From NCBI GenBank assembly GCA_043719295.1, contig JAYSUD010000001.1:28943-92942 (forward strand): DNA of 64,000 bases. The letters run 5' to 3'. The stretch is from a bacterium. GTDB taxonomy: Bacteria > Patescibacteriota > Minisyncoccia > Phycocordibacterales > UBA918. The translations under genes were made by a program, and so were the position numbers. How positions within the stretch are numbered: the stretch's first letter is position 1; every line of letters begins with the position of its first letter. The notes under the pieces are model-generated. The model had not been told where the DNA came from. It did no database searches and was given only the letters and a program-made list of their open reading frames with translations. Of the stretch, positions 3,084-57,682 are shown piece by piece.

Positions 3084-4151
3084 ATGTTCGTATTAACAAC
3101 GAACGTTTCTGCAAGTTACAGAGTGATCGCGACACTCGTAGCAACTGCGTTAATTTTGTCGGCTACAGGAGTCTACAATTTTGCACAGGCAGCAAACGTC
3201 ACAAGCGTATCTGACACGTTGAGTGATTCAGATAGAAGCGTAGATTCAAACCATACCATCAGGTTCACAACACCAACTGGTATTACCGTTGGACAAACAG
3301 TCACCATAACCTTCCCAGCAGGTTTTAGTCTAACGGGTGTAACAACTGGAGACTTTGCAATTGCAACACCTGATGCAAACTGGACTGAAGGTGTTGCAGG
3401 ACAAGTGGTAACGTTCACTCGAACTACAAGTCCTGTAGCAGCATCTACTACAGTAATTGCCACCTTCACAGGATCAAACAAAATAAATAATCCTTCGACC
3501 ACAGGTTCGTATGAGATTGTTATTGCGGGGACTATGGCCGATTCAGGCCGCACACGCGTAGCGATTGTAGACAATGTTGATGTTACTGCGAGAGTAGATA
3601 CATCGTTTAACTTCACAGTTATTGGAAACGCAACAACAACAGCTGTTAATGGAACAACGACAACTCGCACATCTTCATCTACAACAATTCCGTTTGGAAC
3701 ACTCGTAGCAAATCAAATTACAACACTTGCACAAGATCTAACCGTCCAGACAAACGCCATTCGAGGGTTTGTGGTTACAGTTGCAGAAGATCAACATCTT
3801 CTTTCATCAACAGGAGCTGATATTGACAACTTCTCTGAGGGAGTTACCTCAGCAACACCTGTCGCATGGAATGCTCCCGACAACCTTATTGGAGACGAAA
3901 AGACCTGGGGACATTGGGGTGTTACTTCTGAAGACACTGCAACTACAAGAAGCGTCCAGTTTGGATCAAATCAATGGGTTGGAGTTTCGACAACACCACA
4001 AGTTCTCTTTAGTCACGCTGGTCCATCTGATGGTACAACAGCAGGAATAGGACGAACAAGAGTAGGGTATCAAGTACAAATCTCGCCACTTCAGGAAGCG
4101 GGAGATGACTACAGCACAACCCTTACATACATTGCAACTCCAACTTTCTAA
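3084..4151 (+). CDS. Secreted cell-surface protein with shared N-terminal module and WxL-like C-terminal domain (paralog of 40737..41882)
   Basis: N-terminal TM/signal then AANVTSVSDTLSDS...HTIRFTTPTGITVGQTVTITFPAGF; C-terminus ...TWGHWGVTSEDTATTRSV...GDDYSTTLTYIATPTF, conserved in five proteins of this window. Confidence 0.6.
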   Translation: MFVLTTNVSASYRVIATLVATALILSATGVYNFAQAANVTSVSDTLSDSDRSVDSNHTIRFTTPTGITVGQTVTITFPAGFSLTGVTTGDFAIATPDANWTEGVAGQVVTFTRTTSPVAASTTVIATFTGSNKINNPSTTGSYEIVIAGTMADSGRTRVAIVDNVDVTARVDTSFNFTVIGNATTTAVNGTTTTRTSSSTTIPFGTLVANQITTLAQDLTVQTNAIRGFVVTVAEDQHLLSSTGADIDNFSEGVTSATPVAWNAPDNLIGDEKTWGHWGVTSEDTATTRSVQFGSNQWVGVSTTPQVLFSHAGPSDGTTAGIGRTRVGYQVQISPLQEAGDDYSTTLTYIATPTF

Positions 4152-4171
4152 ACTAATTTAGAACAAAGAGT

Positions 4172-4203
4172 AAGAAAAATCCCCGAAAGGGGATTTTTCT
4201 GTA
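4172..4203 (+). terminator. Rho-independent terminator
   Basis: AAAAATCCCCGAAAGGGGATTTTTCT hairpin plus T-run directly after the 3084..4151 stop. Confidence 0.75.
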
Positions 4204-4287
4204 TGCCGGAGTTTTGTATTCTTGATGTTATATACATAAAATAATTCGATATCCAAGCGTGTAATGTTAAACTGTATGAGTTATTAG

Positions 4288-5370
4288 TTGTACCTATATA
4301 TGTTGCGTAATTCTCTACTAAAGCAGTTTTTATTTATTGTTCTTTTTGCAATCATCCTGCCTTATGCAACTGCTTCTGCACAAAATAGTACAGCTGGAAT
4401 TGGACTTAAACCGGCAACAATTGAAGGAGGGGCAATACCAGGTGAGACTCAAACGCATCCTTTTGGTGTCACAAACTTAAGTGCGGTAAATCAAACATAC
4501 TATCTTTTTACTCGAGATATTACTGGAGTTGAAGAAGGTGGGGTTCCAATATTTGCTGATGAAAATCAAGAAAAAACTGAGTATGAACTTTCTGAATGGG
4601 TAACACTAAGTGCACAAGAAGTAACCCTAGCACCAGGAGAAGAAAAAGTAATTGATGTTACTATTGCGGTACCGTTAACTGCAACACCGTGTAGTCACTT
4701 TGGTGGAGTGTTTGTTTCTATGCAACCACCACGAATGCGCTCAACTGGAGCTTCAGTAGGGTATGAAGTTGCAAACATCATTAGTTTGCGTGTTGCTGGT
4801 GAGTGTGTAGAAGATGCACAAATTCGTTCGTTCTCAACTGACAACTTTATCTATAGTAAACCTCTAGTTGAATTTACGGCTCGTGTTGAAAACAAAGGAT
4901 CGGTATTGGTTCGGCCATTTGGTCCGCTTGAGATAACCAATATGTTTGGAAAACGAGTTGCCATGGTTACGCTAAATGAATCTAAAGGTGGTGTGTTTCC
5001 TCGTACGGAACGCTCTTTTAATATAACTTGGGAAAGTGATGGACCTGGTTTTGGAAGGTATCAAGCTATTTTAAGTATGATTTATGGTGAGCAAGGCAGG
5101 CAATCAACTATTTCGTCTACTGCTTCATTTTGGATACTGCCGATGAACATTATCCTCCCTGCATTAGGTGCACTTGCGTTTTTACTCTTGTGCGCATACA
5201 TCTTTGTGAAGTTGTATATTAATAAAACAGTGCGGAGTATGTCAGGGGGCACACGGCGAATAGTTCGTCGTAAACGACAAGGGGGTATGTCGGCGCTGTT
5301 ACTTGTGGTTGTTGTCATGCTTTCAGTTACTGCGTTATTCCTCCTTATCTTGTTGGCCCTCTTTGCTTGA
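4288..5370 (+). CDS. CscA/DUF916-DUF3324-like cell-surface protein: signal peptide, two beta-sandwich ectodomains, C-terminal TM anchor(s)
   Basis: Signal peptide; ...VTLAPGEEKVIDVTIAVPLTATP...ENKGSVLVRPFGPLEITNMFGK... then hydrophobic C-terminal segment(s); follows a WxL-like protein as in Firmicutes csc loci; paralogs at 36600, 55030, 56021. Confidence 0.5.
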   Translation: MYLYMLRNSLLKQFLFIVLFAIILPYATASAQNSTAGIGLKPATIEGGAIPGETQTHPFGVTNLSAVNQTYYLFTRDITGVEEGGVPIFADENQEKTEYELSEWVTLSAQEVTLAPGEEKVIDVTIAVPLTATPCSHFGGVFVSMQPPRMRSTGASVGYEVANIISLRVAGECVEDAQIRSFSTDNFIYSKPLVEFTARVENKGSVLVRPFGPLEITNMFGKRVAMVTLNESKGGVFPRTERSFNITWESDGPGFGRYQAILSMIYGEQGRQSTISSTASFWILPMNIILPALGALAFLLLCAYIFVKLYINKTVRSMSGGTRRIVRRKRQGGMSALLLVVVVMLSVTALFLLILLALFA

Positions 5371-5387: not shown

Positions 5388-5789
5388 ATGAAAGATTCTG
5401 TGTACCACAGCTTGCTTCGAATCTCAGCACTCACCTTAAGTTTAGTGCTGTTGTTTGTTAGTGGCATTTTCTCAGAATCAACAAAAGAACTCTCGCTTAA
5501 TACAGGTTCGTATCTTGCTACCGCAATTGGAATGAATGCAGCAGTTTTGCCAACTGAAATAAATACACTCTCAGCACAACTTCTTGAAAAAGATAAAGAA
5601 ATACAGAGTAGGGAAATTGCAGTGAGTTTAAAAGAAGCAAATCAAAATAAAAGTGATACGGCAACATTTGTGTTAAGTGTTCTCCTTTTTGTACTTCTCA
5701 TTTTGATTGTTCTCAATTACATTCTCGACTACATACGGACACGAAAAATTACACCTCTACCTGTGTCAGGATATGAACAAGCTCACTAA
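5388..5789 (+). CDS. Small two-TM membrane protein, unknown function
   Basis: ORF with hydrophobic helices at both N- and C-termini; no recognisable motif. Confidence 0.35.
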   Translation: MKDSVYHSLLRISALTLSLVLLFVSGIFSESTKELSLNTGSYLATAIGMNAAVLPTEINTLSAQLLEKDKEIQSREIAVSLKEANQNKSDTATFVLSVLLFVLLILIVLNYILDYIRTRKITPLPVSGYEQAH

Positions 5790-6585
5790 GTCAGCTCTTA
5801 TAGGTATTGGTGCTGTAGTTTTATCTACGGTCGCTATTCAAGCAAGTGATCTTGTTGGTGGTATTAGTGGCAATCTCGCGGGTTTAGCAATTGAAAGTCA
5901 GAGTGTATGTGGCGAAGGAGCGACGTTGGTGCTTTTAGGTTCGCAAAGTTTATGTGTTGATACGTATGAAGCCTCACCGAGTGATGCGTGTCCGTATCCT
6001 GTTGTAGATAGTCAAAATAAAACACAAGACAATGCAAATGCTCCTGAGTGCACGGTGGCATCCGCCCAAGATGCAATACCGTGGGCTTTCGTTTCACAGA
6101 TTCAAGCACAGCAATTTTGTGGGAAAGTAGGTAAGCGCCTACCTTCAAATGAGGAATGGTATAAAATTGCCAGTGGATTTAGTAATGAAGGAGCGTGTGT
6201 TATTAACTCTGGGTTATCCTCTCCTTCTAAAACGGGGACAGAAGCGTGTGTCACTCCACTTGGCATCTACGATGTGGTTGGAAATGTATGGGAATGGATT
6301 GATGGTGAAGTAAGTGGGGGAATGTATAACAACCGCGCGTTACCAACTTCAGGGTATGTAGCCATGGTTGATACAAATGGTATTACTATTGAGACAAAAA
6401 ATAGTGCTTTGGAGGAATTTGGAAATGATTACGCACAAACTTCACAAGAAGGGATAAAAGGAATTATCCGTGGTGGTTTTTATGGAAGTAAAAGTGATGC
6501 AGGAATATTTGCTCAAAATCTAGCGGTGCCACTTGATTTTAAATCTGCTGGAGTTGGGTTTCGCTGTGTGAAGACGGTACAGTAA
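5773..6585 (+). CDS. Membrane-anchored SUMF1/FGE-sulfatase (C-type lectin-like fold) domain protein
   Basis: N-terminal TM (MNKLTKSALIGIGAVVL...) then RLPSNEEW...GNVWEWIDGE...RGGFYGSKSDAG...GFRCV, characteristic of the FGE-sulfatase domain. Start moved to ATG 5773 from track 5707. Confidence 0.65.
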   Translation: MNKLTKSALIGIGAVVLSTVAIQASDLVGGISGNLAGLAIESQSVCGEGATLVLLGSQSLCVDTYEASPSDACPYPVVDSQNKTQDNANAPECTVASAQDAIPWAFVSQIQAQQFCGKVGKRLPSNEEWYKIASGFSNEGACVINSGLSSPSKTGTEACVTPLGIYDVVGNVWEWIDGEVSGGMYNNRALPTSGYVAMVDTNGITIETKNSALEEFGNDYAQTSQEGIKGIIRGGFYGSKSDAGIFAQNLAVPLDFKSAGVGFRCVKTVQ

Positions 6586-6635
6586 TTTATTTATAGTTTT
6601 TTTGGGGATTAAGAAGTTCTTTGAACTTCTGATAG

Positions 6636-7457
6636 TTGTATACTATAAATATGAAATGGCTCAAAGTGGGGAGCGTTATATTTGGTGCGCTTATTATTAC
6701 TGCACTTGGTATTGACGCAGCCGATACACTTTCTGGTTCGAGAGGAACACTTCTTGGTCAATTAGTTGGAAGTCCCCAACAAAGTGCCTGTGAAGCAGGG
6801 ATGGTAGAAGTTAATTTGGCTTCAACGTTTACCTGTGTTGATGTATATGAAGCTTCTGCGCTACAAGACTGCCCCTATCCATCACCACAAAATGAAGAAG
6901 AGACTCGATTAAATCTTGAAAGTACTACTTGTGGAGCATCTTCAGGTGCGGAAGTTTTACCCTGGCGTTTTATTACACGTGAACAAGCAAATGTTGCCTG
7001 TATGAAGTCGGGTAAACGACTTCCAACAAACCAAGAATGGCACGTACTTGCATCGGGAACCCGTGATGACAGATCTCTCTGTAACATGGACGGGAGTGGA
7101 GTTTTGCAAACTGCAGCCAATTCACAATGTGTCTCAGCTATCGGAGTTATAAATGCTATTGGTAATGTGTGGGAATGGACCTCCGACGATGTAATTTCTG
7201 GAGTATATAAAGGAAGAGAGCTTCCAAGTTCTGGTTATGTTACTCAAGTTGATAACGAAGGGGTTGCGACACTCACAACACTCACACCTTCAGAATTGTT
7301 TTATAAAGATTATTTCTGGTCTTCAAAAGAAGGTGCATACGGTATTATGCGTGGGGGTTTCTATGGAAGTAAAAGTGATGCAGGTGTGTATGCGGTTCAT
7401 GCACAGACTTTGCCGACTGCAGCGGGGACTGCCATTGGTTTTCGCTGCCTTCGGTGA
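6636..7457 (+). CDS. Membrane-anchored SUMF1/FGE-sulfatase domain protein, tandem paralog of 5773..6585
   Basis: Same motifs: KRLPTNQEWH...GNVWEWTSDD...RGGFYGSKSDAG...GFRCLR; N-terminal TM. Confidence 0.65.
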   Translation: MYTINMKWLKVGSVIFGALIITALGIDAADTLSGSRGTLLGQLVGSPQQSACEAGMVEVNLASTFTCVDVYEASALQDCPYPSPQNEEETRLNLESTTCGASSGAEVLPWRFITREQANVACMKSGKRLPTNQEWHVLASGTRDDRSLCNMDGSGVLQTAANSQCVSAIGVINAIGNVWEWTSDDVISGVYKGRELPSSGYVTQVDNEGVATLTTLTPSELFYKDYFWSSKEGAYGIMRGGFYGSKSDAGVYAVHAQTLPTAAGTAIGFRCLR

Positions 7458-7575: not shown

Positions 7576-7680
7576 CCACTAGAGTTTGATTTAGAATTGC
7601 TAGGCGTTCATTGTTTATGTAAATCTTATAATGTGTACAGTAGTCATTACTGTTGTGTACATACGTTACAATGGTACGTA

Positions 7681-9811: not shown

Positions 9812-10276
9812 ATGTCCTTTCTACAAAGACTTAAAGGTCGGGGTGTACGAAGTGGAGAAAAACTACTTTCTTCTGATGAAGCTACTTCGCTTGATAAAAT
9901 TGTGCAACTTGATGTTGACGTGTTTCAAACTGACAACATGATTGTTGTTTATGCACATGCGGCGGGTGCTGATATGTCTGACATTCAAGTTTCCATTGAA
10001 GGAGACGCTGACATTGTACTTATTGAAGGGCGACGACTTCGTCCTGAACATATTGCATTTCCAAAGAAGAAACCTGATGGTGCATTTTTTACTGAAGAAT
10101 GTATCTGGGGCGATTTTTATCGAAGAATTATTTTGCCTGAAAGTGTTGATATCGAAAACGCTGATGCAAAAATTAAAAATGGTGTTCTCATTTTAGTATT
10201 GCCACTTTTGAAAGCTGAAGAAAAAGAAAAAGTAAAACTGAAGATAACTAAAGCAAAGTCAGCACAACGTATGTAA
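9812..10276 (+). CDS. Hsp20/alpha-crystallin family small heat-shock protein
   Basis: ACD pattern VDVFQTDNMIVVYAHAAGADMSDIQVSIEGD..LIEG...GDFYRRIILPESVDIENADAKIKNGVLILVLPL. Confidence 0.75.
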   Translation: MSFLQRLKGRGVRSGEKLLSSDEATSLDKIVQLDVDVFQTDNMIVVYAHAAGADMSDIQVSIEGDADIVLIEGRRLRPEHIAFPKKKPDGAFFTEECIWGDFYRRIILPESVDIENADAKIKNGVLILVLPLLKAEEKEKVKLKITKAKSAQRM

Positions 10277-12821: not shown

Positions 12822-12994
12822 AGGTTGTATGTAACTGGATGAGGTTTTTCTCAAAAAAAAGAGGTGAGAATACTATAATATCCATATTTAAAGCGCTATA
12901 TTTTACAGTGTGTGCTTTTGTTGCATCCTTCTCTACAAAACTAGTACCAAGAAGAATATTTGTCACATACAACTCAATATTGAGGAGATTAAAA

Positions 12995-45452: not shown

Positions 45453-46127
45453 ATGTTTACAGTTACCTCGACAAACAAAAAAACGATACTTAATGCTTTC
45501 GTGATACTTTTTTTGCTATTAGTTTGTGTATTTGTGTATATACGCCAAAATCAAGAAAAATTTGTTGCACATACAAAATTGAAAATTTCTGAACAACAAA
45601 CAACTCTTTCTTCAATTGCGTTGCTTACCTCAAAGGACGGTGCAGACATGGTCGTTTCAAAAATTATTAAAGATTGCAGTCCTGAAAACAGAGCTTTGTT
45701 TGATGAAAAGTTGAGTAACTTACCGCAACTTAAAGGGCAGGAGCTTGTACAAATGGAACAACTTTTTAATGCATGTGGGAATTTTTTCGCTGAACAAAAT
45801 GCAGTAATGGTCGCGCGCCTTACACGTGAGTATGAATTCTATGCTGATCTTATTGAGATCAATTCTGTTGTTGGTAAACGATTTGATGAGCGAGTATACA
45901 AAAAAGAAGAATGGGAACAACTTGTTCTCCTTGCAACCAAACGTAGTGAATTATCAACAAAACTTGTTGACGCACAAGGAGCTATAATTCGAGCACTTAG
46001 AAATAATGTGACTATAGCCTCAGATGTGATGCAGGCGGAACTTGTTGAAGCACAAAAAACAAAACAGGAACTTGTAACTGTAACTCTTGATATTGACTCA
46101 CGTCTGCAACAGATCCTTAATCTATGA
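45453..46127 (+). CDS. N-terminally membrane-anchored helical protein, unknown function
   Basis: Single N-terminal TM (ILNAFVILFLLLVCVFVYI), otherwise charged/helical; no recognised motif. Confidence 0.4.
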   Translation: MFTVTSTNKKTILNAFVILFLLLVCVFVYIRQNQEKFVAHTKLKISEQQTTLSSIALLTSKDGADMVVSKIIKDCSPENRALFDEKLSNLPQLKGQELVQMEQLFNACGNFFAEQNAVMVARLTREYEFYADLIEINSVVGKRFDERVYKKEEWEQLVLLATKRSELSTKLVDAQGAIIRALRNNVTIASDVMQAELVEAQKTKQELVTVTLDIDSRLQQILNL

Positions 46128-51800: not shown

Positions 51801-54800
51801 TCCGTATGGAAGTATCAAATGAAGGTACGATTACTTCACCGAATACAGCGCTCCGTCTGGAGTTTGGTACAAAAATTAGTACCTGTTCAGCTGTAGCTTC
51901 GTGGACAGACGTTGGTGCGACGTTAGGTGCCTTTGATATGTTTGCTTCAGCAAACCTAACAGAAGGAGGTAACACAACAAATATTGCTACAGGTATCGGT
52001 GGAGTTACAGACGATAATACTACGTTTAAAACTCCAAACGCCTCAGTTAAAGACACAAGTTCGCAAATAGCAACAACTACTTTTTTATCGACGAACTTTA
52101 TTGAAACGGAGTTTTCAGTTAAGCAAACAGCAAATGCTGCGTACGATACAACGTACTGTTTTAGACTTTCAAACGCGGGGACAGCATTGCAGGCCTACAC
52201 AGCCTATCCGGAGCTTACAACCTCTCCAGAACGTGATTTTGAAATACAGCGAGGTGTCGCTAACTTTAGTGCAACGTCAGTTACCTTAACTGCAGGAGTT
52301 GACTATATCGCGCCAAGTGCTTCAACTAGTGCGTTTGTTCGTATTACAAACTCACATTATACAGGCGCAGGTGATAGTTCAGCAGGTGGAAACTCTAATG
52401 CTGATGACGTAACTGCCTACATTTCAAACCCTTCTAACCTTGTTACTTCGTTTACCATAACAAGACCCGCAACAGCCATAGCTACTACTACACGTGTTGC
52501 CTGGGAAATTGTTGAATTTATTGGAACACCAGGCTCTGATAATGAAATGAAGGTACGTGGCAATGGAACAGTGACCTATACCACTACATCAATTACCGCA
52601 ACAGGAACTGCAGTAACGGGTATTGTTAATGATGCAGACGTCGTTGTGTTTATAACTGGACAAGATAATCCCGATATACTTACTACAGACTACAACACCG
52701 GACAGTCAGTATCACAGTGGCTTTCGGCTTCTGACCAGCCGTCATTTAGACGTGGAGAGGCTTCGGGGGATGCAAGTCGCATTAGTTATGCAGTTGTAGA
52801 ATTTACCGGAGTAAATTGGAAAGTACAACGAGCTTCACACACGTATACAGCAGCAGGTACAACGGAAACAGAGTCTATTACTGCAGTAAATAGTTTATCA
52901 AGAACTTTTATTCATTCTCAGAAACGCATGGGTACGGCGCTTCAAGGTGAAGATGAGTTTGGGCATGAGGTATGGCTTTCAAGTATTGGTGCTGTTTCTT
53001 TTTTCTTACAAGGGGGAGCAACATCACCAGCACTTCAAACTTCAGTTGCGTGGATTATTGAAAATACACAAACAAGCAATGGCGCAATGGTGGTGACACA
53101 AAAAAATAACTTTACAAACGGTGGAGCGGAGCCGCTGACGTTAAGTATGCCAATAGATATTACGCTTGACGATCTCACCAATACATCAATATTTGCAACA
53201 AACCGCGCTGTAGGTACAGGAACGTTGTTCCCTCGCCCAATTGCTGGATTTAGAATTGCATCAACAACACATTTTGAAATTTGGAGAAGTGATACGGGAA
53301 CTCAGATTGATTATCGTGTAGAGATTGTACAGTGGCCAACAGCTGGTTTGGCACTTCATCAAAACGACTACCGTTTTTATGTTGATAATAATGCACTTGA
53401 CCCAACTGACCCGTGGCCTTTAGGTGTTATTGATCTTGGTGAAAACACGGTATTAACAGGAAGTGACGAACCGCTAGGTGATGCAGAGCATATTCGTATT
53501 CGTATGTCGGCTACGGTCTTTAATGCAACATTGCCTGAAGATACTGTAAGTAACAAGTTACAATTTGGGGAGCGTATAACAACCTGTACTGCAATAGGTG
53601 AAATTAATTGGATTGATATTGGCAATGCTACATCAAGTGCAATTTGGCGAGGGTACAATGCTTCTGGTGTTGTAGATGGTACAACATTGTCAACAGATCC
53701 TCCTACAGGAGGTGAACTCAATATTACTGCGTCCGATATTGGGGGAACGTATGAGGAAACAAACAACTCTGCTGTAAACCCGTATACAGTAGAAGAAGGT
53801 GAAGACATTGAGTATGACTGGCACATTCAGCAAAATGGTGCAGATGCTGAAACTTTCTATTGTTTTAGAATGGTTGATAGTAGTGGTTCAGTATTTGGTG
53901 CATATGATGACTATCCGCAGTTACGGACCTCTTCATTTACCGCAAAAACACAAAACTGGCGTTGGTATAGTGATGCAAATAACGAAACCCCAACCCAAGC
54001 ATTAGCGATTGAAAATTCGGCACCTATTGATATTGGTAATGGAAGTACGACAAAATTGCGAGTAACGGTTAAAGAAACTGAAAACATCGCACGTGATGAT
54101 GTTCGTTTTAAATTGCAGTATTCAGAGTATGCCGATTTTTCAAACAATGTGTACGACGTTCTTGCAACAAGTACGTGTATTGCTTCGTCAACATGGTGTT
54201 ACTTTAATGGAGGAGGAAGTGATAATGCGGTTATAAGTACAAAGGTACTTTCTGATGCAGACGCGTGTGTTGCGGGAGTTGGTGATGGTTGTGGTACACA
54301 CAATGAAAGTTCACAGTTACTAACGGGATTTAGACACGAAAATAGCGCTGCTACTGAATACGAATTTACGCTTGAGGCAAAAGCTCTGCGAGCAAATGCG
54401 GTGTATTATTTTAGGTTGTATGACATAACCCAAGACATACCTGTTCTCATAAACACAGGTGAGTCGTATCCTTCACTTGTTGCTGTTGGTGCATCATTGG
54501 TTTTTGACGTTGCAGGGATTACTTCGGGAACCGTTATTGACTCATTTACCGTTGACGTAACTTCAACACCAACTGCGATTCCGTTTGGTACAGTTCCGTT
54601 TAATACTGATTTTGAGGCTGCATACAGACTTAATATAAACACAAATGCAACCCAAGGATATCAAGTGTTAATGTACGCTGATCAACAATTACTTAATTCA
54701 TATGGCACACAAATTCAACCAATAACTGCGACAAATGCAACTCCTGCGGGTTGGAATGATCTTACATTCGGTTGTTTACCCTCTTCTTTTGGTTGTTTTG

Positions 54801-55024
54801 GGTATCACGCAGAAGATGATTCATTAAGTGGAATAAATGGACCACGATTTGGAGCTGATGATACATTTGCACAACTTTCCACAACTACGCCACATGAAGT
54901 TATGTATAGCTCTATTCCTGTTAATGATACTCATGATATTCTATACAGATTAAAGGTGACCGAACAGCAGGCAGCGGGGGAGTATGAAACAACCATAACG
55001 TATATAGCTGTACCTGTGCATTAA
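48833..55024 (+). CDS. Giant (2063 aa) cell-surface protein with internal tandem duplications and WxL-like C-terminal domain
   Basis: N-terminal TM/signal; two ~250-aa tandem repeats (TTLPYNCASVSYGGGESQFG...YCMRLTN vs TTAPYDCASESYGGSEAQFG...YCFRLSN); further (Y/F)R(F/W)Y.D...YCFRMV modules shared with the 5576-aa giant; C-terminus ...AIPFGTV...NTNATQGYQV...GEYETTITYIAVPVH. Confidence 0.8.
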   Translation: MNRRLYNTGSFLVAYKFLSILLIVSFFFGNLGALFNFNTAEKAEAAQVTIDSAADVTGASHIHGASQSVFISDQVGYKFYRDAPGYCVYKKTSDGGSTWSSTTTVDAQIDCVGISVWYDRWTPGDTGTNIHIVTIDTGNDDPWYNRLDTNGDTRLLGSAPVSAILGPPAQGANTFTALSNYPAITKGTDGTVYIAVSDNVDSYIVECSITCQTAANWTETGPTGTLPATPDFNLLVPLASGNIMLINRLIASEDIRSKIWNNTAWSGTWTVIEGNGTDNTTYPVGMAATVSSTTPGNVYLAYVASNATLGTDDQVRTHRYTGGAWATTTSVLTGTTRGLTNVAIALDASNDDVYVAYTGRTTATASSTGNVYWKKSLDDMATWSVESPVINTTSNDMYGVDLNISSNERIQATWFDNARDDIYTDTIADVFSGIHATTTGSHTGSATASTSNFYVGGAFVLSQNYKTQDITDITITENGTIDGDANISNIKLFYEMDTTLPYNCASVSYGGGESQFGSTDTSGFSGPNGVSTFSGTTVSVGTTSTMCGYVVLDILNSTPNGSTIDLSINNPATDVTVTNGTAGPPTAQTMTGATTVTNDNLTQIRYHWRNDDNTEALATSKTGGTEGISFSGYQRTPVRLRMEVSNEGGASSLATQYRLEYSLATTSCNLATGWTDVGASNGDFDMSPSANLTDGNDTTNIAVAQGGVTNENTTFLTPNGGVKDTSSQTGNITLSTTQYVELEYSIIASTTAADGNTYCMRLTNAGTPLDTYSVYPQVTIQADVNLTTRLTQTANLNVPSTNQNVGGQFVLTDATGSHTITSIKLTENGTVNAQTGLDNIRLKYDFDTTAPYDCASESYGGSEAQFGATSTASFSGTNGTTTFSGSLGVTTTQTVCMYTVLDVTTSASNGQTVEVEISNATTDATLTSGSSAPSSARALPGTTTLVGAVLTQSRYHFRADNGTEAAATSLTGGNENTALTNVSQNTPVRIRMEVSNEGTITSPNTALRLEFGTKISTCSAVASWTDVGATLGAFDMFASANLTEGGNTTNIATGIGGVTDDNTTFKTPNASVKDTSSQIATTTFLSTNFIETEFSVKQTANAAYDTTYCFRLSNAGTALQAYTAYPELTTSPERDFEIQRGVANFSATSVTLTAGVDYIAPSASTSAFVRITNSHYTGAGDSSAGGNSNADDVTAYISNPSNLVTSFTITRPATAIATTTRVAWEIVEFIGTPGSDNEMKVRGNGTVTYTTTSITATGTAVTGIVNDADVVVFITGQDNPDILTTDYNTGQSVSQWLSASDQPSFRRGEASGDASRISYAVVEFTGVNWKVQRASHTYTAAGTTETESITAVNSLSRTFIHSQKRMGTALQGEDEFGHEVWLSSIGAVSFFLQGGATSPALQTSVAWIIENTQTSNGAMVVTQKNNFTNGGAEPLTLSMPIDITLDDLTNTSIFATNRAVGTGTLFPRPIAGFRIASTTHFEIWRSDTGTQIDYRVEIVQWPTAGLALHQNDYRFYVDNNALDPTDPWPLGVIDLGENTVLTGSDEPLGDAEHIRIRMSATVFNATLPEDTVSNKLQFGERITTCTAIGEINWIDIGNATSSAIWRGYNASGVVDGTTLSTDPPTGGELNITASDIGGTYEETNNSAVNPYTVEEGEDIEYDWHIQQNGADAETFYCFRMVDSSGSVFGAYDDYPQLRTSSFTAKTQNWRWYSDANNETPTQALAIENSAPIDIGNGSTTKLRVTVKETENIARDDVRFKLQYSEYADFSNNVYDVLATSTCIASSTWCYFNGGGSDNAVISTKVLSDADACVAGVGDGCGTHNESSQLLTGFRHENSAATEYEFTLEAKALRANAVYYFRLYDITQDIPVLINTGESYPSLVAVGASLVFDVAGITSGTVIDSFTVDVTSTPTAIPFGTVPFNTDFEAAYRLNINTNATQGYQVLMYADQQLLNSYGTQIQPITATNATPAGWNDLTFGCLPSSFGCFGYHAEDDSLSGINGPRFGADDTFAQLSTTTPHEVMYSSIPVNDTHDILYRLKVTEQQAAGEYETTITYIAVPVH

Positions 55025-55029
55025 ACTAT

Positions 55030-56049
55030 ATGAATAATTTTAAGTATTCTCTAAAAATCAAGATACAACTTTTTTTGTGTGTTGCATTTTTTCTTCCACA
55101 ACTTGCTTTTGCATCGGTGTACTCTGTTTCTCCGCTTGTTATTGATCATGAGCTAGAAAAACGAGACATTATCGAAGAAACTATAACCCTCACTAATAGA
55201 CAAGAAAGTGTTATCTCAATTTATCCTTCTGTAAATGAAGTGAATGTTAGTGATAAGGGAGCGATTGTAGGATTTGTTGAGCCGTCAATGGTCGAAAACA
55301 GAGGGACTGCCATTACTTCGTGGCTCGCCATCAGTCGTGCAAATATTGAACTACAACCTGGTGAAACAAAAGAAGTTACGTTAACCATTCGGGTGAATCC
55401 TGAAGTTGAACCAGGTGAGTATCATGCATTTATTGGGTTTGGAGAAGGTTCAAATCGCCCAGAAGCAGAAAAAAAGGTACAAGAAGGAACAGCCCCTGGT
55501 ACGGTTGTCCGCATTGGTGTAGATAAGGTTCAAAATGAATTTTTGCGTTTGGAAAAATTTTCAGTTGAACGGTTTATTAAAAATGAATCCGAAGGCGATA
55601 TTGTAATTAAGCTTGCTAACCCGGGAGAAAGTATGGTAATTCCAGGAGGTGAAGTTATTTTTTACGACACCAACGGTATTGAACTTGAATCAATACCACT
55701 TAACGAATCAAAAGTTTCGATTGAACCTGGAAAAAGTATTGAACTTACTCAAGAGGTGCCTGATGTGCTTCAAATGGGTAAGTATAAAGCTTTTTTATCG
55801 GTAGAATATGGAGAAACACAGAAAGCATCACTTAACGACACTGCTTTCTTTTACGTATTACCTTTTAAAAAATTGTTACTTATATTCGCAATTTTGCTTA
55901 TCTTTGCTATTGCGATAGCATTGTTTGTGCACAGAAGGTACGACAAAGAAGACGGACATGAAGATGGTGTAGCTGATGTTGCAATGTACGTCCGTTCAAG
56001 CCGTTCAGAAAGTAAGGATCATGATATCGATTTATCTAAGAATAAGTAA
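55030..56049 (+). CDS. CscA/DUF916-like cell-surface protein with C-terminal TM anchor
   Basis: Signal peptide; ...LQPGETKEVTLTIRVNPEVEPGEYHAFIGF...; second half ...IKNESEGDIVIKLANPGESMVIPGG...; C-terminal TM LLLIFAILLIFAIAIALFV + HRRYDKEDG. Confidence 0.5.
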   Translation: MNNFKYSLKIKIQLFLCVAFFLPQLAFASVYSVSPLVIDHELEKRDIIEETITLTNRQESVISIYPSVNEVNVSDKGAIVGFVEPSMVENRGTAITSWLAISRANIELQPGETKEVTLTIRVNPEVEPGEYHAFIGFGEGSNRPEAEKKVQEGTAPGTVVRIGVDKVQNEFLRLEKFSVERFIKNESEGDIVIKLANPGESMVIPGGEVIFYDTNGIELESIPLNESKVSIEPGKSIELTQEVPDVLQMGKYKAFLSVEYGETQKASLNDTAFFYVLPFKKLLLIFAILLIFAIAIALFVHRRYDKEDGHEDGVADVAMYVRSSRSESKDHDIDLSKNK

Positions 56050-57682
56050 CTCAATATTGTACGGAGTCTTAATTGGACTTGCGACTGCTATTTTTTTAGT
56101 ACCTTCTCAAACACAAGCCCAGACACTCGATGGTTTGTCATTGAGTGTCACCCCAACTCTGTTTGAGATGTCTGTTGTGCCAAGTCAGGTGTGGAACAGT
56201 AATGTAAAAGTAATCAATAACAATAAATATCCGATAACGGTATATGCACAAGTAGTCAATTTTGCACCCCAAGGGGAACAAGGTGAAGGTAAGTTTATCC
56301 CTGTCTTAACAGAGGTGACCGAAGGGTCAACACTTGCAGAATGGATTAAGCTTTCAAATGAACCGTTTGTGATTGAACCTGAGAAAAGTGCTGTCATTCC
56401 ATTTGTTGTTACAGTTCCAGAAGGAGCAAGTCCGGGTGGTCACTTCGCTGCTATCATGGTTGGTACAAAACCACCGAAACTTGATGGCACTATTAAAGTA
56501 GCTACATCGCAGATTGTCACGTCTCTATTTTTTGTTCGTGTTGCAGGTGACGTTATTGAAGACGGACAGGTGCGAGAATTTAGAGTTACAAAATCAATTG
56601 TCGATACGCCTCGCGCTCTTTTTGAAGTTCGGTTTGAAAATAAAGGTAATGTACACGTGCAACCACAAGGAGAGATTGTTATCACAAACATGTGGGGTAA
56701 AGAACGAGGTATTATTCCTATAAATCATCAAACCCATTTTGGTAATGTGCTCCCTAACAGTATTCGCAAGTTTGAATTTAGTTGGGAAGGTGAGTATTCC
56801 TTTTCAGATATTGGTCGATACAAAGCTGACCTTACGCTCAGTTACGGAGATGGTGAAAAAAAGTTTGCAACCAGTCGAGCCTATTTTTATATTATACCGT
56901 TTAAAGCTGGTTTAATACTTTTGTCCTCGCTAGTTTTATTGGTGCTCTTTGTACGGTTCGCTATAAAGTCATACATTCGAAGAATGTTACTACTTGCAGG
57001 AATTGAGCCAGAAGTATACAAACAAAGAAATACTAAAAGTTATCAAAAAGAAGGTGACGTTCGCATTGTAAAACATGCATCAGTACGTGCTCCTGTTTTA
57101 CTTGGTGTATCTGATTTGAAGGAACATTTTAAAGGGAGAGTACAGCTTATTGATAAAGCCAAAGGGTTGGTGCAATTTGTTGTTTTGTACAAGACTTTCT
57201 TCCTTCTTGCATGTCTTGGGATTATCTCAATTGTCGCAGTGACGTTGTTCTTCTTGTCAGTGACAAAAAGCCAACGTGATTATGAAATTATTATAGATAA
57301 TGCAGATACGGATGTTACGCTTTCATCAGAACAAATTTTGTATAATAAAGATAAAGCAATCGCTAAACCAGAATCTGTTTTTGAGGAATCGAATAAAAAA
57401 GATCAATCCTTTAAGCTCATTTTGGTTAACTCAAGTGACACACCTGGGGCCGCTGCAATACTGCAAAAGACATTAGAGAGTAAAGGATATGTCATAGAGG
57501 ATCTCCAATCTGATTTTGAAAAGTCTAAAGAAAAGTCAGTAGTGGTCTACAGTACAGAACTTCAAGAACAAGCACTTGATCTGAGTAAGTACATTGGTGG
57601 AGCCCTGTTGTCTGCACGACCTGAAGGTGATACCGAGGTTCCTACCATAACTTTGTTTATAGGGAATGATTATGTGCAATAA
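56021..57682 (+). CDS. CscA/DUF916-like ectodomain fused via TM segments to a C-terminal LytR_C-like domain
   Basis: Signal peptide MISIYLRISNSILYGVLIGLATAIFL; ectodomain ...EPEKSAVIPFVVTVPEGASPGGHFAAIMVG... and ...ENKGNVHVQPQGEIVITNMWGK... (compare 4288 protein ENKGSVLVRPFGPLEITNMFGK); TM; C-terminal LILVNSSDTPGAAAILQKTLESKGYVIEDLQ...SVVVYSTELQEQALDLSKYIGGALLSARPEGDTEVPTITLFIGNDY resembles LytR_C. Track ORF begins 55976 and overlaps the upstream gene; ATG 56021 used. Confidence 0.45.
   Translation: MISIYLRISNSILYGVLIGLATAIFLVPSQTQAQTLDGLSLSVTPTLFEMSVVPSQVWNSNVKVINNNKYPITVYAQVVNFAPQGEQGEGKFIPVLTEVTEGSTLAEWIKLSNEPFVIEPEKSAVIPFVVTVPEGASPGGHFAAIMVGTKPPKLDGTIKVATSQIVTSLFFVRVAGDVIEDGQVREFRVTKSIVDTPRALFEVRFENKGNVHVQPQGEIVITNMWGKERGIIPINHQTHFGNVLPNSIRKFEFSWEGEYSFSDIGRYKADLTLSYGDGEKKFATSRAYFYIIPFKAGLILLSSLVLLVLFVRFAIKSYIRRMLLLAGIEPEVYKQRNTKSYQKEGDVRIVKHASVRAPVLLGVSDLKEHFKGRVQLIDKAKGLVQFVVLYKTFFLLACLGIISIVAVTLFFLSVTKSQRDYEIIIDNADTDVTLSSEQILYNKDKAIAKPESVFEESNKKDQSFKLILVNSSDTPGAAAILQKTLESKGYVIEDLQSDFEKSKEKSVVVYSTELQEQALDLSKYIGGALLSARPEGDTEVPTITLFIGNDYVQ

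What the first reader, a model, noticed from the sequence alone, without database searches (positions are those of the whole stretch)
3084..57682. Three csc-like cassettes: a WxL-like-terminated protein immediately followed by CscA/DUF916-like TM-anchored protein(s)
The pairing recurs at 3084→4288, 34647→36600 and 48833→55030+56021. Each downstream protein has a signal peptide, two beta-sandwich-like halves and a C-terminal TM with basic tail. This is the architecture of CscA (DUF916/DUF3324) in Firmicutes cell-surface-complex (csc) loci, where CscA tethers WxL proteins. Finding the same logic here, scaled up to giant adhesins and mixed with cohesin-dockerin, suggests a composite surface-complex system.
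Basis: partly seen in the sequence, partly recalled or inferred. Interest (0 to 1): 0.6.

Follow-up and report, generated by a model that had tools for sequence, protein, structure and literature searches.

The report
Pilin-like subunits with membrane-anchored chaperones
This stretch of an ultra-small (Patescibacteria/CPR) bacterial genome repeatedly pairs a secreted surface protein with a membrane-anchored helper that is a true but distant relative of the CscA/WxLIP protein of lactic acid bacteria; the pairs look like the newly described CPR 'Pam' pilus, which suggests these two surface systems share one assembly principle.

Summary
The three gene pairs are real, and each is conserved in related genomes: 34/34, 5/5 and 11/11 loci. 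All four downstream proteins (4300-5370, 36600-37544, 55030-56049, 56021-57682) belong to one family. Each has a signal peptide, two Ig-like domains and a membrane anchor. The family is homologous to Firmicute WxLIP/CscA over both domains (hhalign 97-98 %, E 1e-11 to 1e-14). PF06030 hits 20/20 relatives of 4300-5370. The best structural match in the PDB is the E. faecium WxLIP crystal structure, followed by PapD/FimC/Caf1M pilus chaperones.

The upstream proteins are not WxL proteins by any profile test (PF13731: 0/35); only the last strand (YSTTLTYIA versus YSTTLTWxL) resembles WxL. 3084-4151, 40737-41882 and the C-terminus of 48833-55024 match NCBIfam 'CPR Pam pilus pilin C-domain' significantly, though below its cut-off. 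The small ones have the Pam pilin build. 34647-36500 and the 5628-aa giant share a different C-terminal module.

Best reading: Pam-like, chaperone-assisted donor-strand modules that build pili and mount giant adhesins, alongside genuine cohesin-dockerin pairs. This is a new variant of a known kind.

The parts
3084..4151 (+). A1: small secreted two-domain subunit, read as a Pam-pilin-like major subunit. It has a signal peptide ending AQA|A, a 9-strand N-terminal beta-sandwich, a conserved linker strand (about 165-181) and a C-terminal module ending YSTTLTYIATPTF.
   Evidence: The AlphaFold model has pLDDT 82.9, with 9 strands at 40-161, a strand at 175-181 and the C-terminal domain at 201-353. 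NF058581 CPR_Pam_pilin_C hits at 1.6e-5, model positions 3-148/148, and hits 26/35 family members. There are more than 2000 homologues and none carries a Pfam domain. PF13731 hits 0/35. The linker and C-terminal domain are more conserved than the N-terminal domain.
4173..4200 (+). Intrinsic-terminator-type hairpin (AGAAAAATCCCC-GAAA-GGGGATTTTTCT) 22 nt after the A1 stop codon.
   Evidence: An equivalent hairpin with a T-run, but a different sequence, follows the A1 homologue in 35/37 related loci.
4300..5370 (+). A2: WxLIP/CscA-like membrane-anchored protein with two Ig-like domains (the ORF opens at TTG 4288; ATG 4300 matches the 356-aa database protein). It has a conserved but low-confidence hairpin at about 141-165 and two TM helices.
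5388..5789 (+). Small protein with two TM segments that follows the A2 homologue.
   Evidence: A homologue is the next gene in 38/39 loci. It has no Pfam domain.
5707..7457 (+). Two paralogous membrane-anchored proteins with an FGE-sulfatase domain (5707-6585 and 6636-7457).
   Evidence: PF03781 scores 50.6 and 49.1 bits. Two or three copies are conserved at this position in the related loci.
7597..9600 (+). Secreted protein whose N-terminal region (residues 50-197) resembles the A1 N-terminal domain. It continues with a Gly/Ser-rich linker, Big_6 and Big_13 domains and a C-terminal dockerin.
   Evidence: The A1-family HMM hits at E 2.3e-13 over positions 19-145. Dockerin_1 scores 29.3 bits, above its cut-off of 22.9.
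9812..10276 (+). Hsp20 small heat-shock protein embedded in the operon.
   Evidence: PF00011 hits at 4e-11. Homologues in the related loci are 72-93 % identical.
10286..11851 (+). Membrane-anchored cohesin protein: cohesin, Ig/Fn3-like domains, a TM segment and a C-terminal tail after the TM. It is the likely receptor for the dockerin proteins.
   Evidence: Cohesin scores 25.8 bits, above its cut-off of 24.1. The TM is at 411-429. The gene is conserved in the related loci.
12839..29725 (+). Giant 5628-aa surface protein. Its last ~215 residues are the same C-terminal module as in B1 (type 2, ending ...NIFYAVAD).
   Evidence: BLAST to B1 residues 360-610 gives 3.7e-21. It contains DUF2341. Homologues of 5500-6700 aa sit at the same position in other genomes.
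29794..31350 (+). Secreted multi-Fn3 protein.
   Evidence: fn3 and Pur_ac_phosph_N hits. It is syntenic in 5/5 loci.
31794..34552 (+). MacB/FtsX-type ABC transporter pair: ATPase 31794-33116 and permease 33344-34552.
   Evidence: ABC_tran, MacB_PCD and FtsX hits. It is syntenic in 5/5 loci.
34647..36500 (+). B1: 617-aa secreted Cys-rich protein with the type-2 C-terminal module (ends GSYTGENTFYAVVGESAFW).
   Evidence: The module defines a family of 427 representative clusters. In the 150 best that were listed it lies at or near the C-terminus of proteins of about 77-2188 aa (many short ones are fragments) in all but a few cases. No member hits NF058581 (0/27), and B1 itself has no Pfam hit. 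Only its C-terminal hairpin aligns with the A1-type module, at E 0.013-0.019.
36600..37544 (+). B2: divergent WxLIP-like anchor or chaperone, with a signal peptide, two Ig-like domains, a TM segment and a basic tail.
   Evidence: hhalign gives 97.8 %, E 6.8e-13 to the C2/C3 family and 87.8 %, E 3.3e-6 to the A2 family, collinear through the TM. It has no direct PF06030 hit. It follows the B1 homologue in 5/5 loci.
37548..38684 (+). Secreted protein with Ig-like domains and a C-terminal dockerin, directly after B2.
   Evidence: Dockerin_1 scores 29.0 bits, above its cut-off of 22.9. It is 39 % identical to the C-terminal half of 7597-9600.
40737..41882 (+). D1: second small pilin-like subunit, a paralogue of A1 (51 % identity) with no adjacent anchor gene. 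It was not in the finding.
   Evidence: BLAST 1.2e-96. NF058581 hits at 4.4e-5. It is conserved at this position in other genomes.
42634..46894 (+). Cohesin/dockerin block: 42634-43674 (cohesin-like plus TM), 43640-45442 (cohesin plus TM), 45453-46127, and 46124-46894 (cohesin-like N-terminus with a borderline dockerin).
   Evidence: Cohesin scores 37.2 bits in 43640. Dockerin_1 scores 22.3 bits against a cut-off of 22.9 in 46124. BLAST links these proteins to 10286.
48833..55024 (+). C1: 2063-aa adhesin-like protein whose last ~185 residues are the A1-type (Pam-pilin-C-like) module plus the preceding linker-like strand. It ends YETTITYIAVPVH.
   Evidence: BLAST to A1 gives 1.1e-14. The A1-family HMM hits at 6e-23 over residues 1889-2067 of the stop-to-stop ORF, about 1884-2062 of the protein. 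NF058581 hits at 8.9e-8, 32 bits. A BNR_2-like stretch lies at 299-392.
55030..56049 (+). C2: WxLIP-like anchor or chaperone with a single TM and an acidic/basic tail.
   Evidence: The A2-family HMM hits at 3.8e-27. PF06030 scores 15.3 bits. The family profile against WxLIP gives 98.3 %.
56021..57682 (+). C3: WxLIP-like anchor or chaperone, extended by a second TM and an extracellular LytR_C domain (the ORF opens at 55976; ATG 56021 gives a proper signal peptide).
   Evidence: The A2-family HMM hits at 7.7e-52. PF06030 scores 18 bits and LytR_C scores 35.4 bits, above its cut-off of 22.2.

Best explanation
The region encodes several copies of one assembly module of a monoderm-type envelope. 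The module has two parts. The first is a Sec-exported protein whose C-terminal Ig-like domain is probably incomplete, that is, missing a strand. The second is a co-encoded membrane-anchored protein with two Ig-like domains, of the WxLIP/PapD-like kind.

Shown:
- The anchors (4300-5370, 36600-37544, 55030-56049, 56021-57682) are homologues of Firmicute WxLIP/CscA and are structurally closest to WxLIP and to chaperone-usher chaperones.
- The partners 3084-4151, 40737-41882 and the C-terminus of 48833-55024 carry a domain homologous to the C-domain of CPR Pam pilins.
- 3084 and 40737 have the Pam pilin build: a 9-strand N-terminal domain, a conserved hydrophobic linker strand and the C-terminal domain.
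- All three pairings are conserved in related genomes.

Inferred:
- The anchor's conserved, intrinsically disordered hairpin at the end of domain 1 (about residues 141-165 of 4300-5370) supplies the missing strand to the partner's C-terminal domain. This is donor-strand complementation, as predicted for WxLIP-WxL and for PamC/D-pilin.
- For the small subunits this strand is then exchanged for the linker strand of the next subunit, which gives a thin Pam-like pilus made mainly of 3084/40737-type subunits.
- The large proteins (48833-55024 with the same module; 34647-36500 and the 5628-aa giant with a second module type served by 36600-37544) use the module to be mounted at the tip of such a filament or held on the anchor, and so act as adhesins.
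- Membrane-anchored cohesins (10286, 43640) that bind dockerin proteins (7597, 37548, 46124) form a second, independent attachment layer in the same operons.
For: Anchor homology:
- PF06030 hits 20/20 family members, best 1.7e-9.
- hhalign to Firmicute WxLIP gives 97.2 %, E 3.2e-11 over 246 columns, and 98.3 %, E 1.1e-14 over 274 columns.
- The only PDB sequence hits of the family profile are EfmWxLIP1, 9i25_C and 9i1y.
- The top Foldseek hits are 9i25_C 'WxLIP bound to long WxL' at 5e-11, followed by CfaA, Caf1M, FimC, PapD, SafB and CsuC at 1e-9 to 1e-7.

Partner homology and build:
- NF058581 CPR_Pam_pilin_C hits 3084 (1.6e-5), 40737 (4.4e-5) and the C-terminus of 48833 (8.9e-8), covering the whole model. 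It hits 26/35 family members, best 3.7e-8.
- The AlphaFold model of 3084 shows a 9-strand N-terminal domain, a linker strand and the C-terminal domain, matching the PamA/B description in preprint 10.64898/2026.03.03.709456.
- The linker and C-terminal domain are more conserved than the N-terminal domain, and the last 20 residues are the most conserved. The same pattern is reported for Pam pilins.

Donor hairpin:
- The segment 146-154 of the anchor has pLDDT below 50 yet is nearly invariant: P144, R147, G150, A151, V153, Y155, V157, A158, I160.
- It parallels the disordered WxLIP hairpin that AlphaFold2 predicts to complete the WxL sandwich (PMC10599100).

Genomic context:
- Pairings are conserved in 34/34, 5/5 and 11/11 loci.
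- A terminator directly after the small subunit gene is conserved in 35/37 loci, as expected for a highly expressed major subunit.
- PamC/PamD are described as PapD/FimC-like with a C-terminal TM helix, which is the same architecture.
Against: - No complex could be modelled, so strand donation and polymerisation are inferences.
- NF058581 scores (24-32 bits) are below the curated cut-off of 55.
- The type-2 module of 34647 and the giant has no detectable relation to Pam pilin C or to WxL. No structure prediction of it was possible.
- Foldseek of the 3084 model against the PDB returned only generic Ig folds (ClfA, integrins, Fabs), plus BslA, YcnI and a CLIPPER domain as short single-domain matches. 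The WxL chain of 9i25 was not among the best 50.
- 4300-5370 has two TM helices and 56021-57682 has a LytR_C domain. Neither feature is described for WxLIP or PamC/D.
- The Pam preprint reports its pilins mainly in Saccharimonadia and Microgenomatia. The class of this genome was not verified.
Confidence: 0.6

Rival explanations
1. This is a static csc-like surface complex. The membrane-anchored WxLIP-like protein permanently tethers its partner (one per anchor) at the cell surface through the C-terminal module, without polymerisation. The small 3084/40737 proteins are platform proteins like the 'small WxL' proteins, and the large ones are the functional adhesins or enzymes.
For: - The anchors are homologous to WxLIP.
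- The Firmicute loci have the same order, large WxL - LPXTG - small WxL - WxLIP, and the same mix of small and large partners (PMC10599100).
- The last strand of the module resembles the second WxL motif: YSTTLTYIA versus YSTTLTW.L.
- A solved structure of WxLIP bound to a long WxL protein exists (9i25).
Against: - No WxL profile match: 0/35.
- Only 15-29 columns align with real WxL domains.
- The small subunits have an extra N-terminal domain and a strongly conserved hydrophobic linker strand. A passive platform does not need these, whereas they define Pam pilins.
- The partner domain matches the Pam pilin C model.
- The small subunit gene has its own conserved terminator, which suggests production well above the level of the anchor.
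Confidence: 0.25
2. The 3084/40737 family forms a two-dimensional surface layer (S-layer-like coat) that the two-Ig membrane proteins attach to the membrane. The giant proteins are independent adhesins that merely share an anchoring module.
For: - The family is very large and well conserved, with more than 2000 hits, the 120 best of them 52-100 % identical to the query.
- The gene is monocistronic-looking with a strong terminator.
- B2 gives a weak hit to a 'putative S-layer protein' model, NF033506, at 1e-4 and far below its cut-off.
Against: - No S-layer family hits the 3084 family in Pfam or NCBIfam.
- The architecture and the significant NF058581 hits point to a linear donor-strand pilin.
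- The NF033506 hit scores 21 bits against a cut-off of 110.
Confidence: 0.08
3. The adjacency has no functional meaning. The downstream genes are generic Ig-fold membrane proteins (CARDB/Fn3-like) that happen to lie next to large surface proteins in an envelope-gene island.
For: - Weak hits to generic Ig-like families also occur: fn3_5, NPCBM_assoc, CARDB and CopC.
- The window as a whole is rich in secreted proteins.
Against: - The pairings are conserved across genomes down to 37-45 % identity.
- The only PDB sequence hit is WxLIP.
- Homology to WxLIP runs collinearly over two domains.
- Each C-terminal module type has its own co-encoded anchor type.
Confidence: 0.03

Closest known systems
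CPR Pam pilus (PamA/PamB pilins, PamC/PamD membrane-anchored chaperones; Ca. Mycosynbacter amalyticus; bioRxiv 10.64898/2026.03.03.709456; NCBIfam NF058581)
   Same: [quoted passage not shown]
- The C-domain is homologous to NF058581.
- Chaperone-like proteins with two Ig domains and a C-terminal TM are encoded alongside.
- Several subunit paralogues share fewer chaperones.
- There is no usher or other trans-envelope machine.
- The host is a CPR bacterium.
   Different: - Scores lie below the family cut-off (24-32 bits against 55), so this is a distant branch.
- The related loci carry Kaiserbacteria, Paceibacteria and Parcubacteria names, plus TPA MAGs titled Saccharibacteria, whereas Pam was reported mainly in Saccharimonadia and Microgenomatia.
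- The same module sits at the end of a 2063-aa protein.
- A second, unrelated-looking C-terminal module has its own anchor (34647/giant with 36600).
- One anchor has two TM helices and one has a LytR_C domain.
- The operons also hold cohesin-dockerin pairs, FGE-sulfatase-domain proteins and Hsp20. The preprint does not mention cohesin or dockerin.
- No PamT-like or RbmA-like PamR gene was identified here.
Firmicute csc / WxL clusters (WxL proteins plus WxLIP = CscA, DUF916+DUF3324+TM; Siezen 2006, Brinster 2007 and Galloway-Pena 2015 as cited in PMC10599100; PDB 9i25, 9i1y)
   Same: - The anchor protein is a true homologue over both Ig-like domains and has the same size (314-360 aa), signal peptide and C-terminal TM.
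- The gene order is the same, with the partner immediately upstream.
- Both have small and large partners that share a C-terminal module of about 160-190 aa.
- A disordered hairpin in domain 1 is predicted to complete the partner's sandwich.
- The last strand motif is similar.
   Different: - The partners do not match PF13731 and lack both Trp-x-Leu motifs: GFVV and LTYIA stand in place of GWxL and LTWxL.
- PF11797 is not detected.
- No small LPXTG protein or sortase gene was seen among the ORFs scanned.
- The partners have a Pam-type N-terminal domain and linker.
- The host is a CPR bacterium, not Lactobacillales or Bacillales.
Gram-negative chaperone-usher pili (PapD/FimC/Caf1M/CfaA chaperones; Pap, Fim, Caf1, CFA/I)
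   Same: - The two-domain Ig-like chaperone fold matches: Foldseek E 5e-10 to 2e-7, with alignments spanning most of the chaperone chains (246-276 columns against chains of 190-229 residues), to CfaA, Caf1M, FimC, PapD, SafB and CsuC.
- Subunits carry a C-terminal Ig-like domain and a conserved extreme C-terminus.
- A major-subunit gene is followed by a terminator, and then by the chaperone gene.
   Different: - There is no outer membrane and no usher.
- The chaperone is membrane-anchored and not soluble.
- The donor strand would be an internal linker and not an N-terminal extension.
- The subunits have two domains.
- There is no sequence-level similarity to PapD-family Pfam models.
Cellulosome-type cohesin-dockerin anchoring
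   Same: Pfam Cohesin (10286, 43640) and Dockerin_1 (7597, 37548) score above their gathering cut-offs. The cohesin proteins are cell-anchored and the dockerins are C-terminal.
   Different: - The cohesin proteins are anchored by a TM helix and not by SLH domains or sortase.
- The dockerin proteins carry Ig-like domains, not glycoside hydrolases.
- One dockerin protein (7597) has a pilin-type N-terminal domain.

Membership tests
WxLIP / CscA (DUF916-DUF3324-TM) | N-terminal PGBD/DUF916 domain (PF06030) | tested here: met
   PF06030 hits 20/20 members of the 4300-5370 family, best 1.7e-9. About half of the listed homologues carry a precomputed PF06030 assignment. The window proteins themselves score 26.6 bits (4300), 18.0 bits (56021) and 15.3 bits (55030) against a cut-off of 27.3, so each is individually just below or below the cut-off. 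36600 has no direct hit and joins only through profile-profile links.
WxLIP / CscA (DUF916-DUF3324-TM) | Second HBD/DUF3324 domain (PF11797) directly after the first | tested here: inconclusive
   PF11797 hits no member at E<=0.1. However, hhalign alignments to real WxLIPs run through the second domain, columns 12-281 and 30-342 of 354. The AlphaFold model has a second beta-sandwich at 173-281, and Foldseek aligns 263-269 columns of 9i25_C/9i1y.
WxLIP / CscA (DUF916-DUF3324-TM) | Signal peptide and C-terminal transmembrane helix | tested here: met
   Hydropathy scan and helices 282-315 and 330-355 in the model. The deviations are two TM helices in 4300-5370, and a second TM plus LytR_C in 56021-57682.
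WxLIP / CscA (DUF916-DUF3324-TM) | Lies in a cluster with at least two WxL-domain proteins (cluster definition of PMC10599100) | tested here: not met
   No PF13731 hit in any upstream protein or in 35 family members at E<=1. The partners carry other C-terminal modules.
WxL domain (PF13731) | Profile match to the WxL domain | tested here: not met
   0/35 at E<=1. hhalign against 9 WxL domains taken from Firmicute plasmids gives probability 2-4 %, E 0.011-0.026, and aligns only the last 15-29 columns.
WxL domain (PF13731) | Two Trp-x-Leu motifs | tested here: not met
   The positions that look equivalent by eye read GFVV/GYVV and LTYIA/ITYIA (3084, 40737, 48833), and NTFYAV in 34647. There is no Trp-x-Leu.
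WxL domain (PF13731) | C-terminal module of about 160-190 aa shared by small and large secreted proteins next to the anchor gene | tested here: met
   A C-terminal module of about 185 aa occurs in proteins of 355, 381 and 2063 aa. The type-2 module occurs in proteins of 617 and 5628 aa.
WxL domain (PF13731) | Non-covalent peptidoglycan binding | not testable with these tools
   This needs biochemistry.
CPR Pam pilus | Pilin C-terminal domain (NCBIfam NF058581 CPR_Pam_pilin_C) | tested here: inconclusive
   The hits are significant and cover the whole model: 1.6e-5, 4.4e-5 and 8.9e-8, and 26/35 family members with a best E of 3.7e-8. All score below the curated cut-off (24-32 bits for the three window proteins against 55). 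None of the 27 members of the 34647 family hits it.
CPR Pam pilus | [quoted passage not shown] | tested here: met
   DSSP of the AlphaFold model of 3084-4151 shows 9 strands between 40 and 161, a strand at 175-181, and the C-terminal domain at 201-353.
CPR Pam pilus | Linker strand and C-terminal domain are the most conserved parts | tested here: met
   Information content is 3.28 bits for the linker, 3.35 for the C-terminal domain, 4.06 for the last 20 residues and 2.89 for the N-terminal domain. V167, T168, A169, V171, T173 and F177 are invariant.
CPR Pam pilus | PapD/FimC-like chaperones with a C-terminal TM helix in the same operon | tested here: met
   The Foldseek hits of the 4300-5370 model include CfaA, Caf1M, FimC and PapD, and the TM helices are present. 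Sequence homology to PamC/PamD themselves was not tested because their sequences were not obtainable.
CPR Pam pilus | Assembly into helical filaments by donor-strand exchange | not testable with these tools
This needs AlphaFold-Multimer or cryo-EM.
Chaperone-usher pili | Outer-membrane usher | tested here: not met
   No usher-family domain was found in the window ORFs scanned against Pfam. That CPR cells lack an outer membrane is established knowledge and was not tested here.
Cohesin-dockerin system | Cohesin and type I dockerin domains above the Pfam gathering scores | tested here: met
   Cohesin scores 25.8 and 37.2 bits (cut-off 24.1). Dockerin_1 scores 29.3 and 29.0 bits (cut-off 22.9), and 46124 is borderline at 22.3.

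The most novel reading that the evidence does not exclude
The csc/WxL clusters of Firmicutes and the Pam pili of CPR bacteria may be two branches of one ancient system for envelopes without an outer membrane. In that system a membrane-anchored PapD-like chaperone (WxLIP = CscA = PamC/D-like) completes an incomplete C-terminal Ig-like module on secreted proteins. The same mechanism would then yield tethered complexes, pili or tip-mounted giant adhesins. The Paceibacteria-type operons seen here would be the bridging form, because they combine a WxLIP-homologous anchor with Pam-type pilins. This would imply that WxL proteins are chaperoned, and possibly polymerising, donor-strand subunits, rather than simply peptidoglycan-binding domains.
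Probability: 0.35. Interest if true: 0.8.

Novelty: new variant of a known kind. Interest (0 to 1): 0.6.

Why it matters
Patescibacteria make up a large share of bacterial diversity and are thought to live attached to hosts, yet most of their surface proteins are annotated only as 'hypothetical'.

- The two subunit/anchor families studied here are large. Capped word-indexed searches found more than 2000 relatives of the small subunit and 823 and 1359 relatives of the two anchor types searched, without a single functional name. Placing them in a pilus/adhesin assembly scheme gives these proteins a testable function.
- The sequence-level link between the CPR anchors and Firmicute WxLIP connects two literatures that do not cite each other. 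The Pam preprint contains neither 'WxL' nor 'DUF916', and none of the ten top-ranked papers of a search combining DUF916/PF06030 with CPR terms contains DUF916.
- That link suggests a mechanistic re-reading of the csc/WxL virulence and colonisation loci of enterococci, listeriae and lactobacilli.
- It also shows how giant adhesins could be mounted on a cell that has neither sortase-type anchoring signals nor an outer membrane.

Tried and rejected
1. WxL membership of the upstream proteins. I ran Pfam on the proteins and on 35 family members. I ran hhalign of the C-terminal module against 9 genuine WxL domains fetched from Enterococcus, Listeria and Lactococcus plasmids, and repeated it with an enlarged profile. 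Only the terminal hairpin aligns, and not significantly. By eye there are five collinear motifs (FG; G[WF]x[LV]; WG; VP/SP hairpin; YSTTLT[WY]). I treat that as a lead, not a result.

2. One common C-terminal module for all three cassettes. This is rejected. 34647 and the giant form a separate family.

3. PDB sequence searches with single proteins and profiles of the 3084, 34647 and 36600 families found nothing meaningful.

4. Foldseek of the 3084 model against the PDB returned only generic Ig folds (ClfA, integrins, Fabs), plus BslA, YcnI and a CLIPPER domain as short single-domain matches. Neither the WxL chain nor Pam pilins were among the best 50, and 25PZ/25QA are apparently not in the PDB copy.

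6. NCBIfam models for a Pam chaperone: none hit the anchors.

7. PamC/PamD sequences were not in the preprint's supplement, so no direct comparison was possible.

8. Identifying the source genome. The exact look-up of the 356-aa protein failed.

9. There are no tRNA genes and no Rfam families in the window, and no further candidate small subunit genes in the gaps 38.7-40.7 kb and 41.9-42.6 kb.

Full report
**What is there.** The window has 38-45 % G+C (2-kb windows) and almost every long ORF is on the + strand. Relatives of its genes come from Patescibacteria/CPR metagenome-assembled genomes. Their record titles name Kaiserbacteria, Paceibacteria, Parcubacteria and Nomurabacteria, and a set of TPA bins is titled Saccharibacteria. 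I did not verify the class of the source genome.

The three pairs named in the finding are real ORFs:
- 3084-4151 (355 aa, 'A1') followed by 4288/4300-5370 ('A2').
- 34647-36500 ('B1', 617 aa) followed by 36600-37544 ('B2').
- 48833-55024 ('C1', 2063 aa) followed by 55030-56049 ('C2') and 55976/56021-57682 ('C3').

**The downstream proteins form one family, related to WxLIP/CscA.**
- A2, C2 and C3 are linked by BLAST and by HMM: 2e-35 and 1.6e-12, and 7.7e-52 and 3.8e-27.
- B2 is more distant. Its family profile matches the C2/C3 family profile at 97.8 %, E 6.8e-13. It matches the A2 family at 87.8 %, E 3.3e-6, collinear from the mature N-terminus through the TM.
- Pfam PF06030 (DUF916, now 'WxLIP_PGBD') is the best hit of A2, at 26.6 bits against a gathering score of 27.3. 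It is also found, more weakly, in C2 and C3.
- PF06030 hits all 20 sampled members of the A2 family, best 1.7e-9.
- I fetched six real WxLIP proteins and nine WxL domains from Enterococcus, Listeria, Latilactobacillus, Lactiplantibacillus and Lactococcus plasmids.
- hhalign of the A2 family against these WxLIPs gives 97.2 %, E 3.2e-11 over 246 columns spanning both domains. The C2/C3 family gives 98.3 %, E 1.1e-14 over 274 columns.
- The A2-family profile hits only one protein in the whole PDB, EfmWxLIP1 (9i25_C and 9i1y, E 0.004).
- The AlphaFold model of A2 (pLDDT 74) has two beta-sandwich domains followed by helices. Its best Foldseek matches are 9i25_C, 'WxLIP from E. faecium locus A bound to long WxL' (5e-11), and 9i1y. 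Next come the chaperone-usher chaperones CfaA, Caf1M, FimC, PapD, SafB and CsuC.
- PF11797 (DUF3324) is not detected.

**The upstream proteins are not WxL proteins. Two module types exist.**
- B1 shares a different module with the C-terminus of the 5628-aa ORF 12839-29725. This second module defines a family of 427 representative clusters. In the listed hits it lies at or near the C-terminus of proteins of very different lengths.
- PF13731 (WxL) hits none of 35 A1-family members, even at E<=1.
- Profile-profile comparison with the genuine WxL domains aligns only the last 15-29 columns: 'LQEAGDDYSTTLTYI' against 'NNLASQEYSTTITWN', E 0.011-0.026, probability 2-4 %.
- The two CPR module types align with each other only over the same terminal hairpin, at E 0.013-0.019.

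**A closer relative: the Pam pilus.**
- NCBIfam NF058581, 'CPR_Pam_pilin_C, Pam pilus system pilin subunit', hits A1 (1.6e-5), D1 (4.4e-5) and the C1 C-terminus (8.9e-8) over the whole model.
- It hits 26 of 35 A1-family members, best 3.7e-8. All scores are below the curated 55-bit cut-off.
- The model derives from a 2026 preprint (10.64898/2026.03.03.709456). Cryo-EM of filaments of the CPR parasite Ca. Mycosynbacter amalyticus identified two pilins, PamA and PamB. Each consists of a nine-strand beta-sandwich N-terminal domain, a single linker strand and a truncated Ig-like C-terminal domain. In the filament, the C-terminal domain is completed by the linker strand of the neighbouring subunit.
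- The same operon encodes PamC and PamD, which are PapD/FimC-like chaperones with a C-terminal TM helix.
- The AlphaFold model of A1 (pLDDT 82.9) has exactly nine strands between residues 40 and 161, one strand at 175-181 and a C-terminal beta domain.
- A1 is 355 aa, of the same order as PamB (38.7 kDa).
- As reported for Pam pilins, the linker and C-terminal domain are more conserved than the N-terminal domain. The last 20 residues are the most conserved, and the linker residues V167, T168, A169, V171, T173 and F177 are invariant.
- The B1 family does not hit NF058581 (0/27).

**Conservation of the pairs.**
- In 40 genome loci found with the A2 family, an A1/D1-type gene ends just upstream of the A2 homologue in 34 of the 34 loci with enough upstream DNA. 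The three truncated loci still show its C-terminus.
- A small two-TM protein follows in 38/39 loci.
- The rest of the operon recurs as well: 2-3 FGE-sulfatase-domain proteins, a dockerin protein, Hsp20 and a membrane-anchored cohesin.
- The order giant - Fn3 protein - MacB-type ABC pair - B1 - B2 - dockerin protein - D1 - cohesin proteins is kept in the five loci examined.
- C1-C2-C3 is kept in 11/11 metagenome loci down to 37-45 % identity. In one of them (L077) it directly abuts an A-type cassette.
- A strong terminator hairpin lies 22 nt after the A1 stop (4173-4200). An equivalent hairpin, with different sequences, follows the A1 homologue in 35/37 loci. This fits a highly expressed major structural subunit.

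**How it most likely works.**

Shown:
- The homology of the anchors to WxLIP, and their structural similarity to donor-strand chaperones.
- The homology and architecture of the small subunits relative to Pam pilins.
- The conserved pairing.

Inferred:
- The anchor supplies a strand to the partner's C-terminal domain. The candidate element is the hairpin closing domain 1 of A2. Residues 146-154 have pLDDT below 50, yet the segment is nearly invariant (P144, R147, G150, A151, V153, Y155, V157, A158, I160) and is followed by an alternating-hydrophobic strand.
- This parallels the disordered hairpin of WxLIP. [quoted passage not shown] It also parallels the F1-G1 loop of chaperone-usher chaperones; that comparison rests on established knowledge and was not tested here.
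- For A1/D1 the chaperone strand would be exchanged for the next subunit's linker, which would give a thin pilus.
- C1, B1 and the giant would use their modules to be mounted at a filament tip or held on the anchor.
- D1 and the giant have no anchor gene of their own. They would share A2/C2/C3 and B2 respectively, much as five Pam subunits share two chaperones.
- Cohesin (10286, 43640) and dockerin (7597, 37548, borderline 46124) domains are genuine.

I put 0.6 on this mechanism, 0.25 on a purely static csc-like tether without polymerisation, and less on an S-layer reading or on coincidence.

**Limits.**
- No multimer prediction could be run.
- PamA/B coordinates were not among the PDB matches, and PamC/D sequences could not be obtained.
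- The type-2 module remains without a structural or family assignment.

**Novelty.**
- The Pam preprint contains neither 'WxL', 'DUF916', 'cohesin', 'dockerin' nor 'Paceibacter'.
- A library search combining DUF916/PF06030 with CPR terms listed its ten top-ranked papers, and none of them contains DUF916.

The kind of system is known: WxLIP-WxL clusters and Pam pili. This is a distant, differently equipped variant. It also provides a sequence-level bridge between the two.

Noticed in passing
window 9812-10276: An Hsp20 small heat-shock protein gene sits inside the surface-protein operon. It is the operon's most conserved gene, at 72-93 % aa identity across the related loci. A cytoplasmic-type chaperone in a secreted-protein operon is unexplained.
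   Followed up: partly
window 5707-6585 and 6636-7457 (2-3 copies in L001-L040): Paralogous membrane-anchored proteins with an FGE-sulfatase (SUMF1-like, PF03781) domain always follow the anchor gene and the small two-TM protein 5388-5789. They could modify or bind the subunits. The Pam preprint reports a glycan-like modification on PamA.
   Followed up: partly
window 7597-9600: The N-terminal region (residues 50-197 of the ORF) is homologous to the N-terminal domain of the pilin-like A1 (HMM E 2.3e-13). The protein then has a Gly/Ser-rich linker, Ig-like domains and a dockerin instead of the pilin C-domain. It is a hybrid between the two anchoring systems.
   Followed up: partly
window 31794-34552: A MacB/FtsX-type ABC transporter pair is conserved between the giant adhesin plus Fn3 protein and B1 in all five loci examined (L047-L051). 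Copies also appear next to the dockerin gene in some A-type loci (L009, L010, L039).
   Followed up: partly
window 56021-57682 and 4300-5370: C3 continues after its TM with a loop of about 80 aa, a second TM and a LytR_C domain (35.4 bits, above its cut-off of 22.2). A2 has two TM helices separated by an Arg-rich loop. Neither feature is described for WxLIP or for PamC/D.
   Followed up: partly
window 58205-58753 and 61400-61942: A membrane-anchored thioredoxin-fold protein (Redoxin/AhpC-TSA) is found within a few kb downstream of C3 in the 12 metagenome loci examined (L053-L077), in several of them directly after it. An FKBP-type prolyl isomerase with an N-terminal hydrophobic segment lies further downstream. 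Both could be extracytoplasmic folding helpers for the Cys-rich secreted proteins.
   Followed up: partly
window 12839-29725: A single 5628-aa ORF carries DUF2341 and an Ig_Rha78A_N-like domain. Homologues of 5500-6700 aa lie at the same position in other genomes. Several internal stretches are similar to repeats in C1 (BLAST 2.4e-36).
   Followed up: partly
window 35-2761: A UmuD-like gene (Peptidase_S24, 35-628) and a UmuC/DinB-like gene (IMS, IMS_C and DUF4113, 1499-2761) are separated by an IS200-like Y1 transposase-family gene on the opposite strand (678-1346).
   Followed up: no
window 1-64000: There is no tRNA gene (ARAGORN) and no Rfam family at gathering threshold in 64 kb. Nearly all genes lie on one strand, and cumulative GC skew rises over nearly the whole window.
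   Followed up: no
L077 7310-20488: In one metagenome contig the C1-C2-C3 cassette is directly followed by a D1/A1-type subunit, an A2-type anchor, FGE-domain proteins, a dockerin protein, Hsp20 and a cohesin protein. The cassettes that are 45 kb apart in the window are contiguous there.
   Followed up: partly
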